IMG/VR virus record: IMGVR_UViG_2721755662_000006
Strand: one strand, 5' to 3'
From: a virus
Taxonomy: Duplodnaviria > Heunggongvirae > Uroviricota > Caudoviricetes
Length of the DNA: 46,008 nucleotides
The first letter of the stretch is position 1; each line of letters opens with the position of its first letter. Position numbers: made by a program. This document shows, one piece after another, positions 39,001 through 42,000 of this stretch.

Positions 39001-42000
39001 CCATCCCCTGGGTTACCCCAACAATTTCAGCAAAATGTTTCTGAGTTATACCGGAATAACGCAAATATTCTCCAAGATTCATTGTTCACCTCATGTGATG
39101 TCATCACGATCATTAATAGCATTGTTATTTTTAAAAGTAAATAGCACCACTATTTCAAAGAGATTAATAATCTTATTAGAATTGAAGGTATGAAAAGAAA
39201 ATCCCTGTCAGAGATCGACCTGCAAGCCGCCCAGAGACTAAAAGAAATCTGGACGGCGAAAAAAAATCAACTAGGGTTAACCCAAGAGCGTGCGGCAGAA
39301 ATTCTGGGATTTTCGACACAGGGAGCTGTAAGCCATTATCTAAATGGTCAGACACCTTTAAATCTTGAGGCTGTTATCAAGTTCGCAGGGTTACTGCAAG
39401 TTCCTCCCGAGTCAATCAGACCAGATATGGCCGAGTTGTTACAAATTGTAAGGATGTATCCCCAAGAATCTGGGGAGGACAATGTTGTCACTATATCTGC
39501 CGATATGGAACAATCGGAAAACGAACTTCCGTTTAATATAGACCCCATGGAGCGGGATTTGCTCCAGACGTTCAGGGCTTTCCCCAAAGAAGATAAAGAG
39601 AAAATGCTTAAGGAAATGAAGGAGAAAAAAGAATCAATTGAAGAAATCGTTGCGCGATGGCTAGCTGCGCAAAAAAGTCGTCGCGCCTAATCTGAGGAGG
39701 TCAAAACATGAGTACAGCCCTTTCCCCGATAATTTCTGAATTTGAAACGGTCGAACAAGAAAACAGCTATAACGAATGGTTGCGAGCCAAAGTGGCAGCA
39801 AGCCTCGCAGATCCCCGTTCTGGAATTCCGCATGATGAAGTAATGGCTGAAATGGAAAACCTTATTGCTCAATTAGCTACAACGAACAGGAGTGAGTAAT
39901 GCTGCCCATTTTATGGCTACCTTCTGCACGTGATGATTTACGTCAGATAGTAGCCTATATTGCTAAAGAAAACCCTCCCGCTGCACGTAGACTAAAAATA
40001 CGCATTGAAACATCAGTTTTGTCACTTACTGAACACCCTTATCTGTACCCACCGAGCGAAAGAGTTCCAAGTCTTCGAGAGATAGTGACTCATCCTAACT
40101 ACATAATACTTTACCGAGTAACAACATCTAACATCGAGATCGTAAATGTAGTTCACTCACGAAGGCAGTATCCAAACAAAAGCTGTTAATCATTTCTGTC
40201 AAAAACCACCTTCGGGTGGTTTTTTTCTTGCCGTGATAATAGCATTGCTATTTACATAATTAAATAGCAGTGGTATTGTTTATGCATCAACCCACCCCGT
40301 CCCACAGAATGCAGGGCAATACTTCGAGTTACCCGGCAGTGGCAAGGGGTTAAGTAGCCAGCCCGAGGCGTATGAACATGACGGCGGGAACACTTTGTAT
40401 AACAGCGCAGCAGGTTTTTAGTTCCGCGACCCGGCGTTAAGGGTAAATGAGGTCAACATGGATACGCTCAATCTTGGCAACAACGAATCTCTGGTATGCG
40501 GCGTGTTTCCCAACCAGGACGGCACGTTTACCGCGATGACGTATACCAGAAGCAAAACGTTTAAAACTGAAGCTGGCGCGCGTCGCTGGTTAGCCAGAAA
40601 CACTGACTGATGAGGTTGACGATGGAATTTAAAGATTTACCAGTACCATTCCAGGAAATGGCAGCGAATATAGTTCGTTCTCAACTGGCGACTCTTGACC
40701 TGAGTACCGTAGAAAAAGAAACCATCGATAATATATCCGGTAACGTGCGTCGAACCTTTATCGGGCTGTACGAAGAAAAGTGGCCATTCGGCGGACAACA
40801 TTCGCCTGAAAACAAGAATCAAGCGAATGATGAGAAGCTGAAACACGTTATCGCCTTACTGCTGGAAGATGCAAAACGTCTACAGCAACTGGAACCAAAT
40901 GCAGGCACCGAAGCCCGCATCTGGATTGCCATAGAATCACTCAAATGTGAAAGCGATGATTATTTAAAAACCATAATTAAAACAACTCAGCTTTCTGAAG
41001 AGCTACCGAAGAAATTGCCATAATAATATGCTTTTCTTATAGAGGGGTTAGAAATATGGGCCAGCATTATAGCAGGCACATATAACAGAAAGTATTTTAA
41101 ATATTACGCCGTATCTTGTGATTGTTTTTTAATATATTCATACAAGCGCACAAGTTGTTTCAACTCTTCAAAGCACATAGCGGAATTTTCAATTTTTCCG
41201 GCGTTGATTAGTGCCAGAAGAGCCTGATGTGCGCAAGCATATGGATCAATTACAGGGCTAATAATATCAACTTGCATATTATCCTCCATAGAGGTTCCGG
41301 GTTAATGATGGAGACCAACACGCTGTCACGTGTGGTCGTGCGCCGGACACGGATAAGAATCCGGCACTGACAGTTTGCTGAAAGAACATATCCCTGAAAA
41401 GTCAGGGCATAACACGAAAGCGCACGGCGAAGTTAGTCTCTCTGTACTTTGTCGTTAAATTTAATTCGACCGTGCGCTTCCGGTTGTGGCAATCCGCGAA
41501 ATGGCGCGGCGGTAAGTATGGCTGGGGCTTCCTCCATTGCTCCAGAAAATGCACCGGGTTGTCAGGTTGACCATACGCCTGAGTGACAACACCGCCACAA
41601 CAACCTCTGTTATCACTTTTCTGGTGATTCGGCGGAAATGGGTATCCGCCATTTTTAAAGTGTATTTTGTGATGCGGTGAATGCGGCTAAGCGCACGCGG
41701 AACAGTTAAAACAAGCGGTCTTTTACTGGCGTAACAGACATCAACTAACAATCCGGCGTTAATTGTTAACTGGTTAACGTCACCTGGAGGCACCAGGCAC
41801 CACATCACAAAATTCATTGTTGAGGACGCGATAATGGAAACGTCACTACCAAACGTTAATACGTCTGAAGGGTGTTTTAATATTGGTATTCTGCTCAGTA
41901 ACCGGGAGTTTACTGAGGACGCCATCAGGATGAGAAAATATGAGCCTTATCTTCTCAATGATAATTCCATACTCTCCAGAATTGCCCTTCTTGAACTTGG

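What the first reader, a model, noticed from the sequence alone, without database searches (positions are those of the whole stretch)
40458..41023. Translationally coupled 50-aa and 137-aa genes are the first products after the left operator
In lambda the first pL gene is the arginine-rich antiterminator N; neither protein here is N-like. As the earliest lytic products they are candidates for antitermination by another mechanism, host takeover, or anti-defence. The 50-aa ORF falls below the ORF-track size cut-off.
Basis: seen in the sequence. Interest (0 to 1): 0.45.

Follow-up and report, generated by a model that had tools for sequence, protein, structure and literature searches.

The report
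First genes of a dicBF-type operon
These are two real but ordinary small prophage genes, a copy of the long-known and still uncharacterised YdfA (DUF1391) and a mosaic neighbour; they open the repressor-controlled early-left (dicBF-type) operon of an E. coli lambdoid prophage, and nothing found here points to a new antitermination system.

Summary
Both ORFs exist and are under protein-level selection. The window is an E. coli Rac/Qin/CP-933P-like prophage, 100% identical to strain FORC_069.

The 50-aa ORF (40458-40610) is YdfA/YdaF (Pfam DUF1391, E 8.5e-30; 84% identical to K-12 YdfA). YdfA is the promoter-proximal gene of the known dicBF operon.

The second ORF most likely starts at 40622, giving 133 aa rather than 137. 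It belongs to an uncharacterised phage family (phrog_1363) and fuses two modules that head separate small proteins in other phages.

The "left operator" is real. The motif ATAGCAnTGnTAT flanks a promoter at 40251-40279 and recurs between the repressor and cro-like genes. DicF, dicB, ydfD and recE follow downstream.

Neither protein is N-like (pI 7.9 and 5.1, no arginine-rich motif). The YdfA model is a small three-strand-plus-helix domain resembling AP2-type folds, but below significance. Published K-12 data show that ydfABC is not toxic and is not needed for the switch.

Best reading: dispensable accessory early proteins that act by binding, not antiterminators. Function remains unknown.

By-product: a conserved 172-nt leader with an upstream ORF and a 23-nt motif.

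The parts
39116..39154 (.). Operator copies in the repressor/cro-like intergenic region: ATAGCATTGTTAT at 39116-39128 and a degenerate copy ATAGCACCACTAT at 39142-39154
   Evidence: Motif search. The degenerate copy was read directly from the sequence.
39190..39690 (+). CI-type repressor, 166 aa. HTH_3 N-terminus and a DicA-like C-terminus (PaaR2/DicA-like)
   Evidence: Pfam HTH_3 at E 9.9e-10. NCBIfam DicA matches the C-terminal part at E 1.4e-7.
39708..40189 (+). PaaA2-type antitoxin (39708-39899) and ParE toxin (39899-40189), co-oriented with the repressor
   Evidence: Pfam PaaA2 at E 8.2e-21 and ParE_toxin at E 4.6e-18. The architecture matches paaR2-paaA2-parE2 of CP-933P (PMC8630535).
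40201..40226 (+). Intrinsic terminator closing the repressor-TA operon: ACCACC-TTCG-GGTGGT followed by T7, preceded by A5
   Evidence: Read from the sequence. Matches the 3' terminator part of the sroH model.
40239..40279 (+). Left operator and promoter. Operators lie at 40239-40251 (perfect palindrome) and 40264-40276. The -35 is TTTACA at 40251-40256 and the -10 is TG-TATTGT at 40274-40279. The predicted start is near 40285.
   Evidence: The downstream GCATCAAC lines up with the K-12 sequence downstream of dicA, the region that holds dicBp. An analogous PL933P promoter was shown experimentally in CP-933P (PMC8630535).
40286..40457 (+). 5' leader of about 172 nt. It is a conserved module shared by heteroimmune phages from about 40292 onward.
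   Evidence: 87% identity to phages Tritos and Evi. Nucleotide diversity is 0.06 in the core, 0.54 upstream and 0.14 at ydfA third positions. No Rfam family matched.
40372..40440 (+). Upstream ORF MNMTAGTLCITAQQVFSSATRR. ATG codons lie at 40372 and 40378, the SD GAGG at 40365-40368 and the stop TAA at 40438-40440.
   Evidence: The ORF starting at the ATG that corresponds to 40378 is kept open as far as the motif in at least 92 of 98 unique leader variants. In 63 of them it runs in frame into the first gene.
40421..40443 (+). Conserved 23-nt motif GTTCCGCnACCC(C)GGCGTTAAGGG(G), just upstream of the SD of whichever gene comes first
   Evidence: Single copy in the window, 0 expected. Present before ydfA, before ydaG (Rac type) and before another gene in phage Evi. 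The possible hairpin has no thermodynamic support.
40458..40610 (+). ydfA/ydaF homologue, 50 aa, DUF1391
   Evidence: Pfam E 8.5e-30. 84% identity to K-12 YdfA. RefSeq WP_000380319.1. AF2 model with mean pLDDT 80.7.
40622..41023 (+). Second gene, 133 aa (alternative start at 40610 gives 137 aa). MEFKDLP family, a fusion of two modules.
   Evidence: phrog_1363 at E 1.6e-42. RefSeq WP_001367985.1. Module structure.
41617..41656 (+). DicF-like sRNA variant. The seed TTTCTGGTGA is kept, followed by a short terminator GGCGGAAATGGGTATCCGCC and a T-run.
   Evidence: Alignment with K-12 dicF. Terminator scan.
41834..42207 (+). dicB (41834-42022) and a ydfD-like DUF1482 gene (42019-42207)
   Evidence: Pfam DicB at E 7.4e-34 and DUF1482 at E 6.2e-15.
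42300..44702 (+). recE-type exonuclease, 800 aa. This is a distal gene of the same leftward operon.
   Evidence: ORF list. RefSeq annotation 'exonuclease'.

Best explanation
The two ORFs are the promoter-proximal genes of a dicBF-type early-left operon in an E. coli lambdoid prophage of the Rac/Qin/CP-933P kind.

Shown here:
- Gene 1 is an allele of YdfA/YdaF (DUF1391).
- Gene 2 is a member of the uncharacterised 'MEFKDLP' phage family. It was built by fusing a conserved N-terminal helical-hairpin module to a second module (ELKHVIALLLEDAKRLQQLEPNAGTEARIW). That second module heads separate small proteins in other phages.
- Both genes sit behind a promoter flanked by two copies of the operator motif that also lies between the repressor and cro-like genes. 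They are therefore switched on when the repressor is lost, together with DicF, DicB, YdfD and RecE.

Inferred:
- They are dispensable accessory proteins that act by binding a partner, not by catalysis. YdfA would do so as a compact three-strand-plus-helix domain. Gene 2 would do so as an acidic helical protein with a constant head and an exchangeable tail.
- They serve phage-host or phage-phage conflict (exclusion, anti-defence or fine-tuning). They do not serve transcription antitermination or host killing.

My confidence is about 0.95 for the identity and operon assignment and about 0.4 for the functional class. The single figure given is a compromise between the two.
For: Identity:
- Pfam DUF1391 at E 8.5e-30 and 84% identity to K-12 YdfA.
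- 100% DNA identity to annotated E. coli genomes, where the proteins are called 'DUF1391 family protein' and 'hypothetical protein'.
- phrog_751 and phrog_1363 hits.

Operon:
- The order is repressor, terminator, operators and promoter, ydfA, DicF-like, dicB, DUF1482, recE.
- K-12 Qin has the same order, as do the sequenced phages Tritos and mEp460_ev081.
- A PL-type promoter with OL operators downstream of the repressor-TA module was demonstrated in CP-933P (PMC8630535).

Real genes: third-codon-position excess in both.

Accessory, exchangeable character:
- The slot after ydfA holds alternative cassettes: ydfB type, MEFKDLP type in at least nine length classes (their C-terminal parts differ, by inspection), the ELKH type as a separate gene, or none.
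- The full-library search finds only the two modules separately, each at the N-terminus of other small proteins.
- In lambda the equivalent slot holds ea10, ral and sieB, and in Rac sieB follows ydaF (established knowledge).

Not toxic and not needed for the switch:
- In K-12, Plac induction of the operon with dicF and dicB deleted gives normal growth (PMC5069750, section 12).
- dicBp still switches on spontaneously in a dicBF-deleted strain (10.1101/2023.04.14.536235, section 9).

Not N-like: pI 7.9 and 5.1, and no arginine-rich motif.
Against: - No experiment or homology assigns any activity to either protein. The functional class rests on position, size, mosaicism and absence of toxicity.
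- The non-toxicity data come from the K-12 allele (84% identical) at single-copy expression. They say nothing about gene 2, which K-12 lacks.
- The YdfA model rests on a shallow alignment of 23 sequences, all at least 78% identical. The gene 2 model is poor, with mean pLDDT 59.
- The structural neighbours of YdfA are mostly nucleic-acid-binding domains, which favours a regulatory role over a conflict role.
Confidence: 0.55

Rival explanations
1. YdfA is a small nucleic-acid-binding regulator. It would bind DNA or the conserved leader RNA of its own transcript and modify transcription elongation, acting as an N-independent antiterminator, or modify translation of the operon.
For: - The AF2 model (pLDDT 80.7) is a three-stranded sheet plus a C-terminal helix.
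- BFVD neighbours include HNH endonucleases and an integrase.
- hhalign against an AP2 alignment reproduces the GV..G.F.A / TF.T..A.R register with P 0.0035.
- A conserved 23-nt motif lies directly upstream of ydfA.
- An intrinsic terminator, the DicF terminator at 41631-41656, stands between these genes and dicB-recE. Read-through help would therefore be useful.
Against: - No Pfam AP2 hit appears even at E up to 10.
- The sheet lacks the Arg and Trp residues that contact DNA in AP2 domains (read from the sequence).
- The net charge is about +1.
- The 23-nt motif also occurs in 6 loci that have no ydfA within 3 kb, such as phage Evi, and it precedes ydaG in Rac.
- There is no second copy of the motif or of the leader on the rightward side.
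Confidence: 0.1
2. The element that acts on transcription or translation is the conserved leader itself, as RNA or through its upstream ORF. It could, for example, protect the transcript from Rho or from terminators, as HK022 put does. The two proteins would be bystanders.
For: - The leader is a separate module. It is shared by heteroimmune phages from about 5 nt after the predicted start. It is conserved about as well as the amino-acid-determining positions of ydfA and about twice as well as third positions.
- It is found before three different first genes.
- It begins with a C-rich tract and carries a conserved SD, ATG and open frame.
- putL of HK022 likewise lies directly after pL (PMC9378689).
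Against: - No sequence similarity to the HK022 early region.
- No second, putR-like copy.
- No Rfam family.
- Folding energies are no better than shuffled sequences, with z of +0.5 to +0.9.
- Too little variation exists for covariation tests.
- K-12 Qin and mEp460 have a short leader that lacks the roughly 110-nt core.
- The conservation estimate is biased by the 18-nt exact bait used to collect the loci.
Confidence: 0.1
3. One of the two proteins feeds back on the immunity switch. It would either tighten or release repression of the left promoter by the DicA/PaaR2-like repressor.
For: - Ragunathan et al. raise the possibility that a product of the dicBF operon helps maintain DicA repression. 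No blue colonies were seen in dicBF+ reporter strains (10.1101/2023.04.14.536235, section 9).
- The first gene of the operon is well placed for feedback.
- The YdfA fold is compatible with DNA binding.
Against: - The same authors favour DicB/DicF toxicity as the explanation for that result.
- Spontaneous switching occurs at about 1% without the operon, so its products are not required for derepression.
- YdfA is nearly identical across phages whose operators are unrelated (diversity 0.54 in the operator region). That argues against operator-specific binding.
Confidence: 0.08
4. They are host-takeover proteins that shut down an essential host process, like Kil or DicB further down the operon.
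For: - Their position in an operon that encodes the division inhibitors DicF and DicB and the lysis protein YdfD.
- Small early phage proteins often inhibit host targets (established knowledge).
Against: - Inducing K-12 ydfABC-ydfDE with dicF and dicB deleted gives wild-type growth, viability and morphology (PMC5069750, section 12).
- A filamentation screen of an expression library recovered the dicB region but did not single out ydfA (PMC6206680).
- This evidence does not cover gene 2.
Confidence: 0.07

Closest known systems
ydfA-ydfB-ydfC, promoter-proximal genes of the dicBF operon of prophage Qin (E. coli K-12)
   Same: - YdfA is 84% identical.
- The position is the same: first gene behind the repressor-controlled promoter.
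- The downstream order DicF, dicB, ydfD, recE-like is the same.
- Function is unknown in both.
   Different: - Here a paaA2-parE TA pair and a terminator lie between the repressor and the promoter.
- The leader is about 110 nt longer.
- ydfB and ydfC are replaced by one 133-aa gene of another family.
- The DicF terminator hairpin is shorter.
ydaG-ydaF of prophage Rac
   Same: - YdaF is a DUF1391 protein, 82% identical in the Rac-type loci.
- Rac-type loci carry the same long leader, the same 23-nt motif and an 18-aa version of the upstream ORF.
   Different: In Rac-type loci the 44-aa ydaG comes first and ydaF second, and no gene follows within 60 nt of ydaF.
PL933P / paaR2-paaA2-parE2 region of cryptic prophage CP-933P (E. 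coli O157:H7)
   Same: - A repressor with a PaaA2-ParE pair in one operon.
- A separate left promoter with operator copies downstream of that operon.
- ydaS/ydaT-like genes on the other side (PMC8630535).
   Different: - The operator sequence differs: ATAGCAnTGnTAT here against a GTTTAGTAA-type consensus there. The immunity specificity is therefore different.
- The genes behind PL933P were not examined in that paper.
Lambda N and nutL, first gene and site of the lambda pL operon
   Same: The position directly behind the left operator and promoter, with a leader sequence element upstream of the first gene.
   Different: - No arginine-rich motif.
- pI 7.9 and 5.1, against about 11 for N (N sequence recalled from memory).
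- No N family hit.
- No boxA/boxB-type pair and no second site on the rightward side.
HK022 putL antiterminator RNA
   Same: A conserved non-coding element that starts a few nucleotides after the left promoter's start site, in a phage that lacks N.
   Different: - No sequence similarity.
- No putR-like second copy.
- No supported two-stem fold.
- The element here is about 110-170 nt, against about 70 nt for put.
AP2/ERF and integrase arm-type DNA-binding domains (three-stranded sheet plus helix)
   Same: The predicted topology of YdfA residues 11-48. The closest superpositions are 1.1-1.5 A over 36-37 residues with 22-28% identity. Lambda Int and Tn916 Int N-terminal domains appear among weak Foldseek hits.
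   Different: - No HMM match.
- Scores are below significance.
- The basic and aromatic DNA-contact residues of the sheet are missing.
- YdfA is a stand-alone 50-aa protein.

Membership tests
DUF1391 (PF07151; YdfA/YdaF) | Match to the family HMM above the gathering score over the full length | tested here: met
   102.6 bits against a cut-off of 27.3. Residues 2-48 match profile positions 1-47 of 48.
DUF1391 (PF07151; YdfA/YdaF) | About 50-aa protein of enterobacterial prophages, promoter-proximal in the operon leftward of the repressor | tested here: met
   317 homologues from Escherichia, Shigella, Salmonella and Cronobacter. ydfA lies within 40 nt of the leader motif in 86 loci and within 300 nt in 23 more.
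dicBF-type early-left operon (Qin) | Promoter downstream of the CI-like repressor gene, carrying copies of the repressor's operator | tested here: met
   In silico only. Operators lie at 40239 and 40264 around TTTACA-17-TATTGT, with the same motif at 39116.
dicBF-type early-left operon (Qin) | Gene order ydfA ... DicF sRNA, dicB, ydfD, recE-like | tested here: met
   DicF is a variant that misses the Rfam thresholds.
dicBF-type early-left operon (Qin) | ydfB and ydfC following ydfA | tested here: not met
   Replaced by the 133-aa MEFKDLP-family gene. No similarity to YdfB or YdfC.
phrog_1363 ('MEFKDLP' proteins) | Match to the family profile | tested here: met
   E 1.6e-42, residues 5-127 of the 137-aa reading. 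The family has no known function.
Lambda N-type antiterminators | N-terminal arginine-rich motif and a strongly basic protein | tested here: not met
   6 Arg+Lys in 50 aa with none clustered at the N-terminus, pI 7.9. The second protein has pI 5.1.
Lambda N-type antiterminators | Matching nut sites (boxA plus boxB hairpin) in both early operons | tested here: not met
   The 23-nt leader motif occurs only once in the window. Its possible hairpin has an 8-nt loop and no energetic support.
HK022 put RNA | Sequence relatedness to putL/putR, and a second copy downstream of the rightward promoter | tested here: not met
   blastn with word size 7 against HK022 23.5-31.5 kb and against the whole window gave only chance-level matches.
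HK022 put RNA | Two stable stem-loops formed by the nascent leader | tested here: inconclusive
   The minimum-free-energy folds are no better than shuffles. The alignment has too little variation for covariation.
HK022 put RNA | Suppression of downstream terminators through binding to the RNAP beta' zinc-binding domain | not testable with these tools
   Needs reporter or in vitro transcription assays.
AP2/ERF DNA-binding domain (PF00847) | Three-stranded antiparallel sheet packed on a C-terminal helix | tested here: met
AP2/ERF DNA-binding domain (PF00847) | Sequence-profile match | tested here: not met
   No AP2 hit for any of 23 family members at E up to 10. hhalign gives P 0.0035 but a probability of only 9%.
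AP2/ERF DNA-binding domain (PF00847) | Conserved Arg/Trp DNA-contact residues on the sheet | tested here: not met
   By inspection. The strands read GVFP / TFTAMTYT / KTF, with no Arg or Trp in the first two strands.

The most novel reading that the evidence does not exclude
The conserved leader (about 40292-40443, with its upstream ORF and 23-nt motif), with or without YdfA, is an N-independent device. It would let RNA polymerase starting at the left promoter of Rac/Qin-type phages read through the DicF terminator and Rho-dependent sites to reach dicB, recE, xis and int. That would be a third solution beside lambda N/nut and HK022 put.
Probability: 0.06. Interest if true: 0.7.

Novelty: already known. 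Interest (0 to 1): 0.22.

Why it matters
The find itself matters little. It is another copy of the promoter-proximal genes of the dicBF operon, whose function the 2016 and 2024 papers cited here still call unknown. Both proteins are already in RefSeq with identical sequences.

Three by-products could help whoever takes up that old question:
1. The predicted fold of DUF1391 is a three-strand-plus-helix domain of the AP2 / integrase-arm / dsRBD kind. This gives a concrete binding hypothesis to test.
2. The second gene belongs to a family with a constant N-terminal head and exchangeable tails, a pattern typical of conflict genes.
3. The left transcript of many of these phages begins with a conserved leader that carries an upstream ORF and a 23-nt motif. 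Both are independent of which gene follows.

How Rac/Qin-type phages transcribe past the DicF terminator without an N protein is a fair open question, but this finding does not answer it.

Tried and rejected
- Rfam at gathering score on the whole window, and at E up to 5 on 40150-41900: nothing in the leader or in the two genes.
- PDB sequence search: only a chance-level hit of YdfA to lambda gpD (E 0.42) and nothing for the 133-aa protein.
- NCBIfam: no hit for either protein.
- PADLOC: only AbiEi at E 0.041 for YdfA.
- Pfam at relaxed thresholds, for 23 YdfA relatives and for ten members of the two module families: nothing meaningful.
- Full-library phmmer with the 133-aa protein: 108 hits. 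All are the two modules separately, with no annotated relative.
- Structure of the 133-aa protein: mean pLDDT 59, too poor for a fold search.
- afdb50 fold search: the library was unavailable.
- Foldseek of the YdfA model against PDB and BFVD: no E below 0.09.
- Put-like hypothesis: no similarity to HK022 and no second copy of the leader in the window.
- RNA folding of the leader, its core, the reverse strand and the motif region: all z-scores between -0.7 and +1.
- RNAalifold on 90 unique leaders gave a weak structure with almost no variable paired columns, so I did not build a covariance model.
- My first impression that the leader core is nearly invariant was corrected by a diversity calculation. 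It is about as conserved as ydfA first and second codon positions, and the estimate is biased by the bait.
- The plasmid gene also called ydfA (IncI/R64 type, PMC12111858) shares only the name and is irrelevant here.
- Literature searches for DUF1391, ydfA, ydaF, ydfB, ydfC and ydaG found no functional study.
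Full report
**What the window is.** The 911 bases around the finding are 100% identical to the chromosomes of four E. coli strains (FORC_069, FORC_043, FORC_029 and NCCP 13983). Parts of the stretch occur in 3800 of 5426 complete E. coli genomes, and 103 genomes carry at least 80% of it. In FORC_069 the region is annotated as a prophage next to yccA.

The gene order on the + strand is as follows:
- a ydaT-like gene and a cro/ydaS-like gene, both on the - strand;
- a 166-aa HTH repressor;
- a PaaA2 antitoxin and a ParE toxin;
- the two ORFs of the finding;
- dicB, a DUF1482 gene (ydfD type), an 800-aa recE-type exonuclease, and an integrase.

This is the layout of the Qin dicBF operon of E. coli K-12 and of the sequenced phages Tritos and mEp460_ev081. 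Phage Evi shares the repressor-leader-recE frame, but it has a Kil gene and no annotated dicB or dicF. The repressor-antitoxin-toxin module matches paaR2-paaA2-parE2 of the cryptic prophage CP-933P (PMC8630535). A Q-type late antiterminator is present elsewhere in the window, at 30686-31258.

**The observation.**
- The 50-aa ORF (40458-40610) is there, with GAGG 5 nt before its ATG.
- The next ORF can be read from ATG 40610, which overlaps the TGA stop as TGATG and gives 137 aa. It can also be read from ATG 40622, which gives 133 aa.
- I favour 40622 for four reasons. GAGG at 40612-40615 sits 6 nt upstream of it. PGAP chose it. All PHROG profiles start matching at residue 5 of the long form. 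The homologues checked begin MEFKDLP.
- The upstream ATG is nevertheless conserved and in frame in all 29 loci with this gene type, so it is not excluded. Either way the genes overlap or lie 11 nt apart. Coupling is plausible but unproven.
- Both ORFs are under protein-level constraint. Differences among alleles fall mostly on third codon positions: 640 against 233 and 212 for the first gene, and 116 against 51 and 34 for the second.

**The left operator.**
- The motif ATAGCAnTGnTAT occurs three times in 46 kb, which is 6 strand matches against 0.53 expected. One copy lies between the divergent repressor and cro-like genes (39116). Two copies lie at 40239 and 40264.
- A degenerate fourth copy sits at 39142.
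- The two left copies bracket a promoter-like TTTACA-17-(TG)TATTGT at 40251-40279.
- The sequence GCATCAAC just downstream lines up with the K-12 sequence downstream of dicA, the region that holds dicBp.
- An intrinsic terminator (40201-40226) separates this promoter from the repressor-TA operon.
- In CP-933P a promoter with OL operators in the same position was shown to be regulated by PaaR2 and YdaS (PMC8630535). In K-12, dicBp is repressed by DicA, and the polycistronic transcript starts upstream of ydfA (10.1101/2023.04.14.536235).

**Gene 1.**
- It is a DUF1391 protein (Pfam E 8.5e-30; phrog_751). It is 84% identical to K-12 YdfA and about 82% identical to the Rac-type YdaF.
- The family is confined to enterobacterial prophages. 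It has 317 database clusters, the 120 best of them at least about 78% identical.
- Many gene calls are 77-86 aa long because the frame upstream of the ATG is open. In this window a TAG closes it, so the product is 50 aa.
- An AlphaFold model built on 23 relatives has mean pLDDT 80.7. Residues 11-50 form three strands and a C-terminal helix.
- Foldseek against PDB and BFVD gives only non-significant hits. These include lambda and Tn916 integrase N-terminal domains and phage HNH endonucleases.
- A profile-profile comparison with an AP2 alignment reproduces the same register, with P 0.0035 but a probability of 9%.
- No AP2 HMM hit appears at E up to 10. The sheet lacks the Arg and Trp residues that contact DNA in AP2 domains.
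- I therefore record a fold-level resemblance only, not family membership.
- The protein has pI 7.9 and no arginine-rich motif.

**Gene 2.**
- There is no Pfam, NCBIfam or PDB match. The PHROG hits are all of unknown function.
- The protein is acidic (pI 5.1) and predicted all-helical. Only the N-terminal helical hairpin (residues 1-55) is modelled with moderate confidence, pLDDT about 78 against 59 overall.
- The full-library search shows two modules.
  - Residues 1-55 head proteins of 106-212 aa whose C-terminal parts differ among length classes.
  - Residues 69-113 (ELKHVIALLLEDAKRLQQLEPNAGTEARIW) form the N-terminus of many separate small proteins. In one E. coli locus such a gene directly follows ydfA.
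- The window's gene is therefore an in-frame fusion of two heads that are separate genes elsewhere.
- Among the loci collected, the slot after ydfA holds the ydfB type (57 loci), the MEFKDLP type (29), nothing within 60 nt (31, mostly Rac type) or others.

**What is known about function.**
- Two published experiments constrain the options.
  - Inducing the K-12 operon from Plac with dicF and dicB deleted, and ydfABC and ydfDE intact, leaves growth, viability and morphology normal (PMC5069750, section 12).
  - dicBp still switches on spontaneously in about 1% of cells when the operon is deleted (10.1101/2023.04.14.536235, section 9).
- ydfA mRNA is detectable in stationary phase (10.1101/2023.04.14.536235) and is induced by an ionic liquid (PMC4077768).
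- No paper in the library deals with DUF1391 as such.

**Explanation.**
- I am about 95% confident that these are the promoter-proximal genes of a dicBF-type early-left operon, namely YdfA and a mosaic MEFKDLP-family protein.
- About their role I can only infer. Five things point to dispensable accessory proteins that act by binding, in phage-host or phage-phage conflict:
  - their small size;
  - no detected match to any catalytic domain;
  - the cassette turnover in this slot;
  - the constant-head, variable-tail build of gene 2;
  - the occupants of the equivalent slot in other phages: ea10, ral and sieB in lambda, and sieB in Rac (established knowledge).
- My confidence in this role is about 0.4.
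- The rivals are a nucleic-acid-binding regulator or antiterminator (YdfA), feedback on the immunity switch, host-takeover toxicity, and an active leader with the proteins as bystanders.
- A further idea, that the ORFs persist only as the 5' part of the DicF precursor, is contradicted by the codon-position pattern.

**The leader, a by-product.**
- The predicted transcript has a 5' UTR of about 172 nt.
- Its sequence from about 40292 is shared at about 87% identity with heteroimmune phages, whereas the promoter and operator region is unrelated. Diversity is 0.54 upstream, 0.06 in the core, and 0.14 at ydfA third positions. This estimate is biased because the loci were collected with an 18-nt exact bait from the core.
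- K-12 Qin and mEp460 have a short leader that lacks the roughly 110-nt core.
- Both leader types end in the motif GTTCCGCnACCC(C)GGCGTTAAGGG(G), at 40421-40443 in the window. The motif precedes whichever gene comes first: ydfA, ydaG in Rac-type loci, or another gene in phage Evi. It is a single copy in the window.
- Within the long leader a conserved GAGG (40365-40368) and ATG (40378) open a reading frame. That frame stays open as far as the motif in at least 92 of 98 unique variants.
  - In this window and in Rac-type loci it stops at the TAA inside the motif, giving 18-22 aa.
  - In 63 variants it runs in frame into ydfA, which explains the 77-aa gene calls.
- No Rfam family, no similarity to HK022 put, no second copy and no thermodynamic or covariation support for a structure were found. 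What the leader does is open.

**Novelty and score.**
- Both proteins are already in RefSeq with identical sequence, and the operon is a textbook cryptic-prophage locus. The finding is ordinary.
Nothing here supports a new antitermination mechanism.
- Rac/Qin-type phages must pass the DicF terminator (41631-41656) without an N protein. This leaves a small chance, about 6%, that the leader and/or YdfA provide read-through. That is the only reading that would make the locus interesting.

Noticed in passing
window 40286-40457: Conserved leader of about 172 nt on the left transcript. It is shared by heteroimmune phages from about 5 nt after the predicted start. It carries a conserved SD and ATG (40365-40380) that open an 18-22-aa upstream ORF. 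In many relatives the same frame gives an N-terminal extension of YdfA to 77 aa. It also carries a 23-nt motif (40421-40443) that precedes whichever gene comes first. No known RNA family matches and no structure is supported.
   Followed up: partly
window 39190-40189: The immunity region carries a paaR2-paaA2-parE2-like three-gene module: repressor, PaaA2 antitoxin and ParE toxin. This matches cryptic prophage CP-933P, but the operator sequence differs (ATAGCAnTGnTAT).
   Followed up: partly
window 41617-41656: DicF sRNA variant. The ftsZ-pairing seed UUUCUGGUGA is kept, but the terminator hairpin is much shorter than in K-12. It misses the Rfam DicF model both at gathering score and at E up to 5.
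   Followed up: partly
window 27150-27365 (-) and 41649-41866 (+): A full STnc100 sRNA copy (192 bits). A weak second match (33 bits, below gathering) covers the untranslated region just upstream of dicB.
   Followed up: no
window 33267-33441 (-) and 28774-29022 (-): A sok antitoxin RNA (hok/sok module) and a cluster of three tRNA genes inside the prophage.
   Followed up: no
window 41104-41289 (-): A 61-aa ORF on the opposite strand, inside the long untranslated stretch between gene 2 and DicF. PGAP annotates it as hypothetical. It has a promoter-like site at 41305-41278 and only a weak PHROG hit (E 7e-4).
   Followed up: no
window 30686-31258 (-): Q-type late antiterminator (DUF1133 at E 7e-104; Phage_antitermQ at E 4.6e-8). 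The phage therefore has a conventional late antiterminator but no recognisable N.
   Followed up: partly
loci L009, L012, L014, L016, L017, L022, L023: YdfA-bearing contigs sit in genomes or MAGs labelled Veillonella, Collinsella, Nanosynbacter, Bacillota, 'Proteobacteria' and Sphingomonas. Most are near-identical to E. coli prophage DNA and look like mis-binned contigs or contamination.
   Followed up: no
phage records ON470583, ON470580 and others (hits H26-H36): Several records list 'head-DNA stabilization protein D' among the features under the ydfA/leader match, apparently for ydfA. The only similarity I could find to lambda gpD is at chance level (E 0.42), so this looks like an annotation error that has propagated.
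   Followed up: partly
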